Shown here: positions 8,493-12,085 of the stretch, one piece after another
Layout of the letters: every line of letters begins with the position of its first letter
How positions within the stretch are numbered: the first letter of the stretch is position 1
IMG/VR virus record: IMGVR_UViG_2529293043_000033
Length of the DNA stretch: 12,085 bases
Strand: one strand, 5' to 3'
DNA from: a virus
Taxonomy: Duplodnaviria; Heunggongvirae; Uroviricota; Caudoviricetes
Position numbers and translations under genes: made by a program
Notes under the pieces: generated by a model
Told to the model about the DNA's origin: nothing
The model's input: only the letters and a program-made list of their open reading frames with translations
Database searches by the model: none

Positions 8493-9080
8493 ATGACCAC
8501 TATTACCAAAGATCGACTGCTGACAATCCAGCATTGGCGCGAAACATACGGACCGGGTAGCAACGTTGTGCTTCCAGCAGAAGAAGCGGAAGAGCTGGCA
8601 CGGATTGCGCTGGCATCACTGGCAGCAGTATCGGATGAACGAGCAGCCTATGAATTATTTATGGAGAAGCGTTTCGGAGAATCTGTAGATCGCCGCAGAG
8701 CAAAAAATGGCGATAGAGATTACATGGTATGGGATATGGCGCTTGGCTGGATTATCTGGTGTCACCGCGCCGCCATGCTTCAGGCTGGAAACTTTCGGGA
8801 AAATAAGGGTTCGTCAACCAATAATTTTCGGGAAATCTCGGAAACGTCAACCAACTATCCGGTAACTCCGGATGGTTGGATAAGCTGTAGTGAGCGAATG
8901 CCGGATGATGGTCAGCACGTAATTATTTTATGTGATGGCGCATTCGTTCTTTATGCGCAATATCGAGACGGTGAGTTTTTTGATGTAGTCCGTAATGGTG
9001 ATGAATTTTTCGAAACACAGAGCCGCAATGTAACCGACTGGATGCCGCTACCAGAACCGCCGCAGGAGGTGCGCCAATGA
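8493..9080 (+). CDS. DUF551-domain prophage protein
   Basis: C-terminal motif TDWMPLPEPP typical of DUF551; starts 2 nt after the preceding stop. Confidence 0.65.
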   Translation: MTTITKDRLLTIQHWRETYGPGSNVVLPAEEAEELARIALASLAAVSDERAAYELFMEKRFGESVDRRRAKNGDRDYMVWDMALGWIIWCHRAAMLQAGNFRENKGSSTNNFREISETSTNYPVTPDGWISCSERMPDDGQHVIILCDGAFVLYAQYRDGEFFDVVRNGDEFFETQSRNVTDWMPLPEPPQEVRQ

Positions 9081-9160
9081 TCTGGCCTGAAGCCTTTGCA
9101 ATTACAGGCGTTGCTATAGCTATTGATTTTTTAGTATATGTTATTTGTCGGTGGGGGTAA
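9077..9160 (+). CDS. Small hydrophobic peptide (27 aa, MIWPEAFAITGVAIAIDFLVYVICRWG), not in the ORF track
   Basis: ATG 9077 overlaps the DUF551 stop (ATGA); AGGAGG at 9064-9069 gives a 7-nt spacer. One predicted TM helix. Confidence 0.4.
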   Translation: MIWPEAFAITGVAIAIDFLVYVICRWG

Positions 9161-9195: not shown

Positions 9196-9300
9196 ATGTC
9201 GGATGATATTTCACTGGCAATGGAAGGTGCGCTGGCTGTTATTGCTGTTGTGGGCGTTTACTGCCTGGTTGTGTTTTTGATGGATCGACTAGGGAACTGA
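9196..9300 (+). CDS. Small membrane peptide (34 aa, MSDDISLAMEGALAVIAVVGVYCLVVFLMDRLGN), not in the ORF track
   Basis: ATG 9196 preceded by AAAGGAGGG. One predicted TM helix. Followed immediately by a perfect 22-bp palindrome. Confidence 0.45.
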   Translation: MSDDISLAMEGALAVIAVVGVYCLVVFLMDRLGN

Positions 9301-9308
9301 ATTCATTA

Positions 9309-9330
9309 CGATATGGGAATTCCCATATCG
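9309..9330. repeat. Perfect 22-bp palindrome CGATATGGGAATTCCCATATCG
   Basis: Read directly; self-complementary around GAATTC. Lies between the second small peptide and the putative hok promoter; no U-tract follows. Confidence 0.7.
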
Positions 9331-9342
9331 GGTAAAAACGGT

Positions 9343-9370
9343 TTGCGGTAAAGCGAGAGTTAAGTAGAAT
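9343..9370 (+). promoter_or_regulatory. Candidate hok mRNA promoter
   Basis: -35 TTGCGG (9343-9348), 16-bp spacer, -10 TAGAAT (9365-9370). A transcript from here to the terminator at about 9796 would be about 420 nt, the expected hok mRNA size. Confidence 0.35.
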
Positions 9371-9429
9371 TGCTGCGGGTGCTTGAGGCTGTCTGCCTCG
9401 GGCATGCCACCGTAAGGTAGACAGAGAAA

Positions 9430-9497
9430 AGCCCCAGTTAACATTACGCGTCCTGCAAGACGCCTAACATTAATCTGAGGCCAATTTCATGCTAGAC
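9430..9497 (-). ncRNA. Candidate Sok-like antisense RNA (approximate extent)
   Basis: Minus-strand promoter candidate -35 TTGCCT (9532-9527), 17-bp spacer, -10 TAACCT (9509-9504), placing an antisense transcript over the mok/hok leader and start region as in hok/sok loci. The 3' end was not resolved. Confidence 0.3.
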
Positions 9498-9545
9498 ACA
9501 TGTAGGTTAGCCTCTTACGCGCCGAAAGGCAAGGAGAAGCAGGCT

Positions 9546-9701
9546 ATGAAGCAGCAAAAGGCGATGTTAATCGCCCTGATCGTCATCTGTATCACCGTCA
9601 TAGTGACGGCACTGGTAACGAGGAAAGACCTCTGCGAGGTACGAATCCGAACCGGCCAGACGGAGGTCGCTGTCTTCACAGCTTACGAACCTGAGGAGTA
9701 A
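9546..9701 (+). CDS. hokD: Hok/Gef-family type I toxin (HokD/RelF-like)
   Basis: 51-aa product MKQQKAMLIALIVICITVIVTALVTRKDLCEVRIRTGQTEVAVFTAYEPEE, near-identical to HokD/RelF as I recall it. AGGAG 9 nt upstream of ATG 9546. An in-frame upstream ATG at 9489 gives a mok-like leader frame. Confidence 0.85.
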   Translation: MKQQKAMLIALIVICITVIVTALVTRKDLCEVRIRTGQTEVAVFTAYEPEE

Positions 9702-9770
9702 GAGACCCGGCGAGGGAGAAATCCCTCGCCACCTCTGATGAATCAGGCATCCTCAACGCACCCGCACTTA

Positions 9771-9796
9771 ACCCGCTTCGGCGGGTTTTGTTTTTT
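9771..9796 (+). terminator. Rho-independent terminator of the hok transcript
   Basis: CCCGC-TTCG-GCGGG stem-loop (9772-9785) followed by TTTTGTTTTTT. Preceded by an fbi-like hairpin GGCGAGGGA-GAAA-TCCCTCGCC at 9709-9730. Confidence 0.75.
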
Positions 9797-9868
9797 CCTG
9801 GCATTCTGGTTTACAATTCGCACGCCAGCCTGAACAACTGGCACCTGCTGCGCCAGCAGAGACAACCG

Positions 9869-10147
9869 ATGGCGCACGATACCAAATTATACAATTCTGA
9901 TGATTCTGCCGTCTTTGCCAGCAGGCGCGGACGGTGTTTTCACGCATTCAAATCTGACTGGTACCAGCATCCCCCATGCACTGAAGAACAGGCCGAATGG
10001 CTCATTCAGTGTTACCGCAGGCGCGGATGCGAGGTTAAAAAAGCCCTTAGCCTCGACTACCGTCACTGGATAATCTCCGTCAGGCTCCCTTACTCCGAAC
10101 GGCCACCGCGTCCGTCCCGCACATTCCAGCAACGGATCTGGAGGTAA
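9869..10147 (+). CDS. Hypothetical protein, Rem-like by position (follows hok as in Qin prophage)
   Basis: First ATG after the terminator (9869), 92 aa. The track's 9788 start lies inside the terminator. Cysteine-rich (C..H ... PPC ... C..RRGC). Assignment is by synteny only. Confidence 0.45.
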   Translation: MAHDTKLYNSDDSAVFASRRGRCFHAFKSDWYQHPPCTEEQAEWLIQCYRRRGCEVKKALSLDYRHWIISVRLPYSERPPRPSRTFQQRIWR

Positions 10148-10148
10148 T

Positions 10149-10832
10149 GTGCGGGTATTACTTCGACCTGTTCTGGTACCGGAACTCGGTCTGGTTATCG
10201 TTAAGCCAGGCCGTGAATCAATGTCAGCATTCCATAACGGCAGAATACTGGTGGAGCCGGAACCAAAAAGCATGCGAGCTCTGCCGTCCGGGGTTGTACC
10301 TGCCGTTCACCAGCCGCTGGCGGAAGATAAATCACTACTGCCATTTTTCAGCGATGAGCGGGTGATCCGTGCTGCGGGTGGCGCTGGTGCACTGTCTGAC
10401 TGGTTATTACGTCACGTGAAATCCTGCCAGTGGCTACACGGTGATTATCATCATAGCGAAACCGTCATTCACCGTTACGGTACCGGCGCGATGGTGTTGT
10501 GCTGGCACTGCGACAACCAGCTGCGGGAGCAGACATCTGATTCACTGGATCAACTTGCTCAACAGAATCTGGCCGCCTGGATGATTGACATCATCCGTCA
10601 CGCAATGAATGGCGCACAGGAGCGTGAATTATCTCTGGCTGAATTATCCTGGTGGGCGGTCCGCAATCAGGTGGCGGACGCGCTACCGGAAGCGGTATTA
10701 CGTCGTTCGCTGGGGTTGCGTGCGGAAAAAATCCGCTCCGTATACCGTGAAAGCGACATCATACCGGGAGAACAGACCGCCACCAGCATACTGAAGCAGC
10801 GCACAAAAAATATTGCGCTACCGTCTCACTGA
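10149..10832 (+). pseudogene. DUF968-like protein (YdfU-like), 3'-truncated by IS insertion
   Basis: GTG 10149 with GGAGG 6 nt upstream. Contains a CQWLHGDYHH ... CWHCDNQ zinc-finger-like motif. The ORF runs to the IS boundary and its stop codon TGA (10830-10832) is the first three bases of the IS inverted repeat; K-12 YdfU is about 349 aa versus 227 here. Confidence 0.6.
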
Positions 10833-10871
10833 ACCGCCCCGGGTTTCCTGGAGAGTGTTTTATCTGTGAAC

Positions 10872-11762
10872 TCAGGCTGCCAGATCATCGTTTCCGATGG
10901 AAGCATAATAAGCTTTTTCTGCTTCTGCCGGAGGAGTATGGCCCAGCCTTCCCAGCAATCGTCGATTGTTATACCAGTCCACCCACGTTAGTGTGGCCAG
11001 TTCCACTTCTGCACGGTTTTTCCAGCTCTTACGGTGTATTACCTCCGCTTTGTAAAGACCATTGATGCTCTCAGCCATCGCGTTGTCATACGAGTCGCCT
11101 GTACTCCCTGTTGATGCCAGTAATCCGGCTTCTTTTAGTCGCTCCGTATAGGCCAGTGACACATACTGAGAGCCTTTATCGCTGTGATGGATGGTGCCAG
11201 ACGGACGACGGGCCCACAACGCCTGCTCCAGCGCATCCAGCACGAATGTCGTTTCCATAGACGATGAGACCCGCCACCCCACGATGTATCCGGCAAACAC
11301 ATCAATGATAAACGCCACATAGACGAAGCCCTGCCATGTGCTGACGTAAGTAAAATCAGCCACCCACAGCTGGTCAGGTCGTTCTGCCACGAACTGACGG
11401 TTTACGCGGTCGCCTGCGGCAACGGCTTTCCGGCTGATGGTCGTACGGACCTTTTTACCCCGGAGAACACCGGCAAGTCCCATAACCGCCATGAGACGTG
11501 CCACTGTACATCTGGCCACCCTGATTCCTTCCCGTAACAACTGACGCCAGACTTTACGCACACCGTACACCTGATGATTTTCATCGTATACGCGCTGTAT
11601 CTCTCTCTTCAGCCAGTCGTCGTGCTGCGCACGGGCACTGCGTTTATCCGGATGATGTCGCTGTTGCTGACAATGGTAATACGTTGACGGGGCAATATGC
11701 AGTTCGCTGCATACCGGTCCGACCCCGTACTGCTCACGCAGCTTATCCAGCAGTGGCATCAT
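10872..11762 (-). CDS. IS3-family transposase OrfB (DDE/integrase catalytic domain)
   Basis: 296 aa; DDE-type motifs (WVADFTYV ... [10 protein letters not shown]); overlaps the orfA stop (ATGA). Confidence 0.9.
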
Positions 11763-12085
11763 TTTTTCCAGAGGCGGTCGAACTCCGCCTTCGCAAAATA
11801 AGCGGAAGCCTGGCGAAGGATATCGTTACTGCGGCGCAGTTCACGATTTTCACGTTCCAGCTCTTTCAGACGCTGACGTTCAGCGCTGGTGAGCCCACCA
11901 TCACCGCCCCCGGTATCCCGCTCATGCTGGCGAACCCAGACACGCAGAGTCTCCGGCGTACAGCCAATCTTTGGGGCAATGGAACAAATTGCCGCCCACT
12001 GTGAGTCATATTCATCCTGACTTTCCAGAACCATACGAATCGCCCGCTGACGGACTTCGGGGGAAAAACGAGTATTTTTAGTCAT
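11759..12085 (-). CDS. IS3-family transposase OrfA (HTH and leucine zipper)
   Basis: 108 aa, [22 protein letters not shown] ... [31 protein letters not shown]. The ATG sits on the last 3 bases of the window. An A6 run at the orfA/orfB junction is the presumed -1 frameshift site. Confidence 0.9.

What the first reader, a model, noticed from the sequence alone, without database searches (positions are those of the whole stretch)
9343..9796. Complete hok-family type I toxin locus without the relBE partner
The locus has a candidate promoter, a mok-like leader frame, a HokD-like toxin ORF, an fbi-like 3' hairpin, an intrinsic terminator and a candidate antisense promoter on the opposite strand. 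In K-12, hokD sits downstream of relBE; here it appears to stand alone, so its control presumably depends on the antisense RNA.
Basis: partly seen in the sequence, partly recalled or inferred. Interest (0 to 1): 0.45.

Follow-up and report, generated by a model that had tools for sequence, protein, structure and literature searches.

The report
Intact prophage hokD/sok toxin-antitoxin locus
This is an ordinary, already annotated hok/sok-type toxin and antisense-RNA antitoxin cassette in a lambdoid prophage of E. coli O157:H7; the K-12 copy next to relBE is the truncated oddity, not this one.

Summary
Window 9343-9796 holds a complete hok/sok-family type I toxin-antitoxin locus. It has a promoter with a conserved -10 box and a 5' tac element. 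A mok frame of 70 codons lies in frame with a 51-aa Hok toxin that is 50/51 identical to K-12 HokD. Downstream are a 3' stem-loop, an fbi segment that pairs with the 5' end over 12 bp, and an intrinsic terminator. The opposite strand carries a Sok-like antisense gene (about 9497 to 9427) with its own promoter. Rfam (sok, 114 bits), Pfam (HOK_GEF, 1e-23) and folding all agree. In silico, the full-length, truncated and metastable mRNA conformations described for plasmid R1 hok each appear.

The sequence is 100% identical in many E. coli O157:H7 genomes, where RefSeq names the gene hokD. It is 91% identical to hokW-sokW of phage 933W/Sp5, which has been shown experimentally to be a type I TA system.

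The relBE framing is backwards. K-12 homology starts only at 9532, so the K-12 copy has lost its promoter, tac, mok start and sok gene. The literature attributes this loss to a rearrangement or to relBE integration. Full-length loci occur in 3952 of 5426 E. coli genomes, and the relE-hokD junction in 1165. The locus is already known and of low interest.

The parts
9343..9370 (+). hok promoter: weak -35 TTGCGG (9343-9348), 16-nt spacer, -10 TAGAAT (9365-9370)
   Evidence: A -10 box (TAGAAT/TACAAT/TATAAT) lies at a fixed 6-nt distance from the conserved GG start in all 10 hok loci compared. It is identical in 933W hokW. It falls below the threshold of the generic consensus scan.
9377..9796 (+). 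full-length hok mRNA (about 420 nt), from the inferred +1 to the end of the terminator T-run
   Evidence: The Rfam sok model starts at 9377. The terminator was found. The MFE is -174.7 kcal/mol with z=-6.9. The 5' end is inferred, not mapped.
9377..9388 (+). tac (translational activator) element at the 5' end of the mRNA
   Evidence: It pairs with fbi 9751-9763 in the full-length fold at P 0.97-1.0. It pairs with ucb 9429-9435 once the 3' end is removed. The tac/ucb stem is present in all 9 aligned leaders.
9389..9424 (+). 5' hairpin; its 5' arm region (9396-9408) can also pair with tac as the metastable nascent-transcript structure
   Evidence: the metastable form appears with truncation at 9740. 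A compensatory G-C to A-U change at 9391/9422 separates this locus from 933W. Three covarying pairs are seen in the alignment.
9429..9435 (+). ucb (upstream complementary box / anti-SD of mok), AAGCCCC
   Evidence: In the full-length fold the adjacent GCC.CCAG pairs with the mok SD region. In the truncated RNA 9429-9435 pairs with tac.
9476..9479 (+). mok Shine-Dalgarno GAGG
   Evidence: It lies 9 nt before the mok ATG. It is paired in the full-length fold, with P(unpaired) about 0 for 3 of 4 bases. It is conserved in all aligned loci.
9489..9701 (+). mok reading frame (70 codons), in frame with hok and sharing its stop codon
   Evidence: The layout (57 nt upstream, same stop) matches mokW/hokW of 933W and mokC/hokC of K-12.
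9510..9514 (+). dcb (downstream complementary box), GCCUC, which pairs with the mok SD region in the truncated mRNA
   Evidence: Predicted fold of 9377-9750 and 9377-9745. The assignment rests on the published R1 model (PMC9841398).
9533..9536 (+). hok Shine-Dalgarno GGAG
   Evidence: It lies 9 nt before the hok ATG. It sits within the AAGGAGAAG block that is invariant in all aligned loci.
9546..9701 (+). hok toxin gene (HokD type, 51 aa)
   Evidence: Pfam PF01848 HOK_GEF, E=9.7e-24. 50/51 identical to K-12 HokD. RefSeq annotates it as hokD, WP_001303917.1.
9709..9730 (+). 3' UTR stem-loop (9 bp, GAAA loop), the likely 3' end protector of the processed mRNA
   Evidence: A compensatory A-U to G-C change at 9713/9726 separates this locus from 933W. 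The role is inferred from the R1 model (PMC9841398).
9751..9763 (+). fbi (fold-back inhibition) element, CCUCAACGCACCC
   Evidence: It forms 12 bp with tac with one bulged C. The equivalent tac/fbi duplex lies 47-57 nt after the stop codon in 7 of 9 loci and is stronger than in nearly all shuffles. A U-A to C-G covariation is seen between the hokD type and the R1 type.
9770..9796 (+). intrinsic terminator of hok mRNA
   Evidence: Terminator scan. It is conserved in K-12 hokD.
9504..9532 (-). sok promoter: -35 TTGCCT (9532->9527), 17-nt spacer, -10 TAACCT (9509->9504)
   Evidence: Both hexamers are identical in 933W sokW. Judging from the mutagenic primer YO-421, that -10 is the element replaced in the promoter-less sokW construct of PMC8621323. 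TTG...T-A---T is conserved across the aligned loci.
9427..9497 (-). Sok-type antisense RNA (about 71 nt), overlapping the first 9 nt of mok
   Evidence: Coordinates are transferred from the sokW misc_RNA of 933W. The fold shows a 9-nt single-stranded 5' tail, a long hairpin and a U-tract, -32.9 kcal/mol, z=-6.7. The 9-nt overlap with mok is the same as for sokC/mokC in K-12. Expression is not shown.

Best explanation
Window 9343-9796 is an intact, self-contained hok/sok-family type I toxin-antitoxin cassette of the hokD/hokW subtype. It is carried in the early region of a lambdoid prophage of E. coli O157:H7.

The proposed mechanism is inferred from the R1 hok/sok model, which this sequence fits in silico:
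1. A weak constitutive promoter makes a stable hok mRNA of about 420 nt. This mRNA is translationally inert because its 5' tac element (9377-9388) is locked to the 3' fbi element (9751-9763) and the mok Shine-Dalgarno is sequestered.
2. Slow 3' trimming removes fbi. tac then re-pairs with ucb (9429-9435), and the leader refolds to expose the mok start region and the Sok target.
3. While the prophage is present, the short unstable Sok RNA binds this region. Sok is made from a promoter inside the locus on the opposite strand (about 9497->9427). Binding blocks mok translation, and with it the coupled hok translation, and triggers decay of the duplex.
4. When Sok supply stops, Mok/Hok is translated and the 51-aa Hok peptide damages the inner membrane. 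Sok supply could stop through loss of the element, transcription shut-off or prophage induction.

Shown here: the presence, conservation and predicted pairing of every element. Inferred: transcription, processing, toxicity and Sok control in vivo.
For: **Family matches**
- Rfam sok hits full length at 114 bits.
- Pfam HOK_GEF gives 9.7e-24.
- HokD is 50/51 identical to the K-12 protein, which is a toxic control in bioRxiv 10.1101/2025.08.07.668861.

**RNA folding**
- The full-length fold has a 12-bp tac/fbi helix at P about 1 and a paired mok SD.
- Removing fbi switches the MFE to tac/ucb plus SD/dcb. One truncation gives the metastable 5' hairpin. These are the three published conformations (PMC9841398).
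- tac/fbi complementarity recurs at the same offset in 7 of 9 diverse loci, with U-A to C-G covariation.
- The tac/ucb stem is present in 9 of 9 leaders, and 3 pairs covary in the 5' hairpin.

**Promoters and antisense RNA**
- The -10 box is conserved in 10 of 10 loci.
- Sok folds as a tail plus terminator hairpin.

**Relatives and annotation**
- The locus is 91% identical to hokW-sokW, with identical promoter hexamers, tac and fbi. hokW-sokW has been shown experimentally to be a type I TA system (PMC8621323).
- The sequence is identical in many O157:H7 genomes and is annotated hokD.
Against: - No transcript, processing or toxicity data exist for this particular copy.
- The generic promoter scan found no consensus promoter, and the hok -35 is weak (3 of 6).
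- The chromosomal hokA, hokB and hokC loci tested earlier did not mediate post-segregational killing (summarised in bioRxiv 10.1101/2025.08.07.668861). An intact structure therefore does not guarantee a phenotype.
- Two of the nine comparison loci (L005, L007) showed no tac/fbi duplex better than shuffles. In L005 this is explained by loss of 3' UTR homology after 9725.
Confidence: 0.88

Rival explanations
1. The locus is structurally intact but physiologically silent. It would be a conserved hitch-hiker whose hok is never effectively expressed, for example because of the weak promoter or subtle point changes, as proposed for several chromosomal hok loci.
For: Earlier tests found chromosomal hokA/B/C loci unable to mediate PSK or rifampicin activation (summarised in bioRxiv 10.1101/2025.08.07.668861). 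The hok -35 is weak, and no consensus promoter was called.
Against: Every regulatory element is conserved. Differences from hokW include compensatory changes in the stems (9391/9422 and 9713/9726), which indicates purifying selection on RNA structure. The close homologue hokW-sokW is active (PMC8621323). Full-length loci persist in 3952 of 5426 genomes.
Confidence: 0.08
2. hok is expressed mainly as a passenger of the prophage early-right operon. Read-through from upstream genes during induction would drive it, rather than its own promoter, much as K-12 hokD is co-transcribed with relBE.
For: hok has the same orientation as the upstream replication and nin-like genes. Only a palindrome without a T-run (9309-9330) and a weak terminator-like site (9251-9267) separate them. 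HokW production in Sp5 is triggered by RecA-dependent induction (PMC8621323).
Against: The locus carries its own conserved -10 box and a precisely positioned tac 5' end that must be the true 5' end to pair with fbi. A 5'-extended transcript would not fit the conserved folding scheme. The same cassette works in unrelated contexts, including the 933W right arm and IncY and IncF plasmids.
Confidence: 0.04
3. Chance resemblance: a small hydrophobic ORF with fortuitous flanking hairpins.
For: None beyond the short length of the ORF.
Against: Rfam E=6e-26, Pfam E=1e-23, fold z-scores of -6.9 and -6.7, and thousands of homologous loci.
Confidence: 0

Closest known systems
hokW-mokW-sokW of Stx2 phage 933W / Sakai prophage Sp5
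   Same: 91% DNA identity over 9333-9773. tac, fbi, the hok -10 and both sok promoter hexamers are identical. Both have an in-frame 70-codon mok and a 51-aa Hok, and both are prophage-borne in O157:H7. hokW-sokW has been shown experimentally to be a type I TA system that assists lysis on induction (PMC8621323).
   Different: Hok differs at 5 residues: one in the hydrophobic segment (I16/L) and four at the C terminus (TAYEPEE against VDYESEK). The Sok 5' tail differs at 3 of 11 positions. The 933W copy lacks the terminator hairpin seen here. It lies at the right end of the phage genome rather than between the replication/nin-like genes and the DUF968-RusA region.
hokD (relF) in the relBEF operon of the K-12 Qin cryptic prophage
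   Same: 97% DNA identity from 9532 to 9795. This covers the hok SD, the ORF (50/51 aa), the 3' stem-loop, fbi and the terminator. The downstream DUF968 gene (ydfU) is syntenic at 84%.
   Different: K-12 lacks everything left of 9532: the hok promoter, tac, ucb, the mok start, the sok gene and the sok promoter. These are replaced by relB-relE, and there is no Rfam sok hit. K-12 hokD is co-transcribed with relBE (PMC5120126) and is regarded as rearranged or truncated (PMC6379469, PMC7232551, PMC12214031).
hok/sok (parB) of plasmid R1 and R1-like plasmid loci
   Same: The element order is the same, and so is the predicted folding pathway (tac/fbi, tac/ucb, SD/dcb, metastable hairpin; PMC9841398). 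The Rfam family is the same.
   Different: DNA similarity is limited to roughly 80% over an 80-nt core. R1 Hok is 44% identical to HokW, the closest relative of this HokD (PMC8621323). In R1-like loci mok is a separate out-of-frame ORF (DUF5431, L012). tac is GGCGCUU rather than GGGUGCUU, with a compensating fbi. These loci are plasmid-borne and have a demonstrated PSK function.
hokC (gef)-mokC-sokC of the E. coli chromosome
   Same: The architecture is identical. mok is in frame and starts 57 nt upstream of hok with the same stop codon, and sok overlaps the first 9 nt of mok.
   Different: It lies at a different chromosomal, non-prophage site. In K-12 it is flanked by IS186 just downstream. 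The sequence is diverged.

Membership tests
hok/sok (Hok/Gef) type I toxin-antitoxin family | Small Hok/Gef-family membrane toxin ORF (about 50 aa, PF01848) | tested here: met
   PF01848 at 83 bits, E=9.7e-24, covering the full profile. 98% identical to K-12 HokD.
hok/sok (Hok/Gef) type I toxin-antitoxin family | Overlapping upstream mok reading frame with its own SD, through which hok translation is coupled | tested here: met
   A 70-codon frame at 9489-9701 with GAGG 9 nt upstream. The layout matches the annotated mokW and mokC. The translational coupling itself was not tested.
hok/sok (Hok/Gef) type I toxin-antitoxin family | cis-encoded antisense Sok RNA gene with its own promoter, complementary to the mok translation initiation region | tested here: met
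   Rfam RF01794 at 114 bits against a gathering score of 59. The promoter hexamers are identical to sokW. The tail plus terminator hairpin fold has z=-6.7. This is met at sequence level only.
hok/sok (Hok/Gef) type I toxin-antitoxin family | Long-range 5' tac / 3' fbi pairing that closes the full-length mRNA | tested here: met
   12 bp at P 0.97-1.0. It is conserved at the same offset with covariation in 7 of 9 loci.
hok/sok (Hok/Gef) type I toxin-antitoxin family | Alternative tac/ucb and mok-SD/dcb pairings in the 3'-processed mRNA, and a metastable 5' hairpin | tested here: met
   Predicted MFE structures of 9377-9750, 9377-9745 and 9377-9740. tac/ucb is present in the consensus structure of 9 leaders. 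In silico only.
hok/sok (Hok/Gef) type I toxin-antitoxin family | Hok is toxic and Sok neutralises it; Sok is unstable and hok mRNA is stable and 3'-processed | not testable with these tools
   Inferred from hokW-sokW (PMC8621323) and from the toxicity of K-12 HokD (bioRxiv 10.1101/2025.08.07.668861).
relBEF operon arrangement (K-12 Qin hokD) | relB and relE immediately upstream of, and co-transcribed with, hokD | tested here: not met
   tblastn with RelB and RelE finds no hit in the window at E<=10. The RefSeq annotation of the identical region has no relBE.
relBEF operon arrangement (K-12 Qin hokD) | hokD lacking its own leader (no tac, mok start or sok) | tested here: not met
   The window has the full leader. 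The K-12 locus has none.

The most novel reading that the evidence does not exclude
The most novel reading not excluded concerns position and paralogy. This cassette lies co-directionally inside the delayed-early transcription unit of an O157:H7 lambdoid prophage. Read-through transcription on induction could therefore silence the convergent sok promoter, making HokD a built-in timer or helper of lysis, or an abortive switch, as proposed for hokW. The divergent Sok 5' tails (3 of 11 positions differ from sokW) might also insulate the 5-10 paralogous hok/sok cassettes of one genome from one another, so that each prophage is policed separately.
Probability: 0.15. Interest if true: 0.35.

Novelty: already known. 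Interest (0 to 1): 0.08.

Why it matters
It matters little beyond correct annotation. The locus is a textbook hok/sok cassette, already named hokD in RefSeq, and nearly identical to the experimentally characterised hokW-sokW.

The useful correction is conceptual. The K-12 relBE-hokD arrangement that serves as the mental reference is a truncated derivative, so "hokD without relBE" is the ancestral, complete and commoner form.

One practical point remains. The mok frame and the sok RNA are not annotated in the RefSeq record examined (only the hokD CDS is). Genome annotations therefore under-report the antitoxin half of this system.

Tried and rejected
- **Promoter scan.** The generic sigma-70 consensus scan of 9250-9900 returned no promoter. 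Promoters were assigned by conservation instead.
- **relBE.** I looked for it in any frame and in the annotation. None was found, so regulation in a relBEF-type operon was rejected.
- **Uninformative comparison loci.**
  - L006 (Salmonella) has no leader (no Rfam hit).
  - L005 loses homology after 9725 and has no fbi.
  - L007 has only a weak tac/fbi duplex.
  - L012 has a group II intron after hok.
- **Literature.** Searches found no RNA-level data for this particular copy.
- **Upstream palindrome.** I considered the palindrome at 9309-9330 as an upstream terminator. It has no T-run, so this was left open.

Full report
**What is in the sequence**

Window 9343-9796 holds a 51-codon ORF at 9546-9701. 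It encodes MKQQKAMLIALIVICITVIVTALVTRKDLCEVRIRTGQTEVAVFTAYEPEE.
- The ORF matches Pfam HOK_GEF over the whole profile (E=9.7e-24).
- It is 50/51 identical to K-12 HokD.
- A longer frame starts 57 nt upstream at 9489, in the same frame and with the same stop codon (70 codons). This is the arrangement annotated as mokW/hokW in phage 933W and as mokC/hokC in K-12.
- Rfam's sok family (RF01794) matches 9377-9551 end to end at 114 bits, against a gathering score of 59 (E=6e-26).
- An intrinsic terminator (stem 9770-9787, T-run to 9796) closes the locus.

These are not chance features. The 418-nt sense RNA folds with z=-6.9 and the antisense RNA with z=-6.7 against dinucleotide shuffles.

**Where it comes from**

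- The 454-nt stretch is 100% identical in many E. coli O157:H7 chromosomes, where RefSeq names the CDS hokD.
- In strain EC4115 the whole window up to 10829 lies in a lambdoid prophage integrated beside potC.
- The gene order there is integrase, excisionase, RacR-type repressor, replication genes, small nin-like genes, DUF551, hokD, DUF968, RusA, lysis genes and terminase.
- From 10830 the window carries an IS3-family element that interrupts the DUF968 gene.
- No relB or relE is present, either in the annotation or by tblastn at E<=10.

**Anatomy of the regulatory RNA elements**

- **5' end and hok promoter.** The inferred 5' end is G9377. A -10 box (TAGAAT, 9365-9370) lies 6 nt upstream, and a comparable box (TAGAAT/TACAAT/TATAAT) lies at the same distance in all ten hok loci I compared. 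The -35 (TTGCGG, 9343-9348) is weak. This explains why the generic consensus scan called no promoter.
- **Full-length mRNA.** Nucleotides 9377-9388 (tac) form a 12-bp helix, with one bulge, with 9751-9763 (fbi). Pair probabilities are 0.97-1.0, and the mok Shine-Dalgarno (GAGG, 9476-9479) is paired.
- **Processed mRNA.** When the RNA is shortened to 9750 or 9745, removing fbi, the predicted minimum-energy structure switches. tac pairs with AAGCCCC at 9429-9435 (ucb), the mok SD region pairs with GCCUC at 9510-9514 (dcb), and the loop 9492-9497 becomes open.
- **Metastable form.** With the end at 9740, the 5' end instead forms the local hairpin with 9396-9408.
- **Fit to the published model.** These are the three conformations described for R1 hok mRNA: closed full-length, open truncated and metastable nascent (PMC9841398).

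**The antisense gene**

- Transferring the sokW feature of 933W places Sok at 9497->9427 on the minus strand, overlapping the first 9 nt of mok. sokC has the same overlap with mokC.
- Its promoter is -35 TTGCCT (9532->9527), a 17-nt spacer and -10 TAACCT (9509->9504). Both hexamers are identical to sokW.
- The mutagenic primer used for the promoter-less sokW construct in PMC8621323 replaces exactly this -10.
- The RNA folds as a single-stranded 5' tail followed by a long hairpin and a U-tract (-32.9 kcal/mol).

**Comparative support**

- I fetched loci from 933W, IncY, IncHI, IncF and IncFIB plasmids of Escherichia, Salmonella, Klebsiella, Enterobacter and Cronobacter. Rfam finds the leader in all of them except L006, which has no leader.
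- A tac/fbi duplex recurs 47-57 nt after the hok stop in 7 of 9 loci. Its energies were matched or beaten by 0-4 of 300 shuffles.
- The hokD type has GGUGC in tac and GCACC in fbi, while the R1 type has GGCGC and GCGCC. This is a U-A to C-G covariation. The same variable tac base is bulged in the tac/ucb stem, which is present in all nine leaders.
- Three pairs of the 5' hairpin covary.
- Even against the close relative 933W there are compensatory changes, at 9391/9422 and at 9713/9726.

**The relBE question**

- Aligned to K-12, similarity starts abruptly at window 9532 and runs to 9795 at 97%. To the left of that point K-12 has relE and relB.
- The breakpoint lies in the sok -35 hexamer.
- K-12 hokD therefore retains only the hok SD, the ORF, the 3' stem-loop, fbi and the terminator. 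It gives no Rfam sok hit.
- This agrees with the literature:
  - It is described as truncated from about 70 to 51 codons by integration of relBE (PMC6379469).
  - It is co-transcribed with relBE (PMC5120126).
- Prevalence in E. coli:
  - Of 5426 complete genomes, 3952 have at least one place covering 80% or more of this 454-nt locus. That much coverage requires the leader.
  - Only 1165 have the relE-hokD junction.
- The stand-alone locus is therefore the canonical form and the K-12 arrangement is the derived one.

**How it most likely works**

By homology the mechanism is the standard hok/sok one, as set out in the best explanation.
- Shown here: the presence and conservation of each element, and thermodynamic predictions that reproduce the conformational switch.
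- Inferred: transcription from the two promoters, 3' processing, Sok instability, Mok-coupled translation and Hok toxicity.
- The inference is strengthened by hokW-sokW, which is 91% identical. [quoted passage not shown]
- The biological role of this copy is open. It could be prophage retention, lysis assistance or phage exclusion.

**Verdict**

The locus is an already known and annotated kind of element and is of low interest.

Noticed in passing
window 10830-12085 (minus strand); Rfam ALIL hit at 11688-11804: An IS3-family insertion sequence (RefSeq: IS1203-like; ALIL frameshift pseudoknot at 121 bits) interrupts the DUF968 gene (10149-10832). That gene is intact in strain EC4115. The IS lies about 1 kb downstream of the hok terminator and does not touch the hok locus.
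   Followed up: partly
window 9309-9330: A perfect 22-bp palindrome, CGATATGGGAATTCCCATATCG, lies just left of the point where homology to the 933W hokW cassette begins (9333). It forms a hairpin of -16 kcal/mol (z=-2.7) with no T-run. It could mark the cassette boundary, a protein-binding site or an RNA processing site.
   Followed up: partly
window 9077-9160 and 9196-9300 (+): Two tiny ORFs (27 and 34 aa) encode hydrophobic, transmembrane-like peptides directly upstream of hok. The second is annotated as a hypothetical protein in RefSeq. Neither has a Pfam match.
   Followed up: partly
window 9527-9532 compared with K-12 (L002 about 2289): The K-12 relE-hokD recombination breakpoint falls inside the sok -35 hexamer. 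The relBE insertion therefore removed the antitoxin gene and its promoter while keeping the hok SD and ORF intact.
   Followed up: yes
window 9683-9689 (UUACGAA; Tyr47 codon 9684-9686): The Tyr codon near the Hok C terminus sits in a UACG context resembling the tRNA-Arg anticodon loop. It is identical to K-12 hokD, for which low-level A-to-I (Tyr to Cys) mRNA editing is reported (PMC12214031).
   Followed up: no
window 9487-9497 compared with L003 (933W sokW): The Sok 5' recognition tail differs from sokW at 3 of 11 positions, while the Sok stem is 57/60 identical. O157:H7 genomes carry 5-8 such loci, so this may limit cross-talk between paralogous cassettes.
   Followed up: no
L012 877-1024 (Salmonella plasmid pCFSAN044921_1): A group II intron (Rfam RF02012, 112 bits) is inserted directly downstream of the hok gene. 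It extends the Hok ORF and probably removes the fbi region.
   Followed up: no
L003 95-183 (phage 933W, about 2.4 kb upstream of hokW): An Rfam sRNA-Xcc1 hit (69 bits, above the gathering score) was found in the 933W flank.
   Followed up: no
window 9489-9701 compared with L012 652-762: In the hokD/hokW/hokC type, mok is an in-frame N-terminal extension of hok. In R1-like plasmid loci, Mok is a separate out-of-frame ORF annotated DUF5431. The family therefore has two distinct mok architectures.
   Followed up: partly
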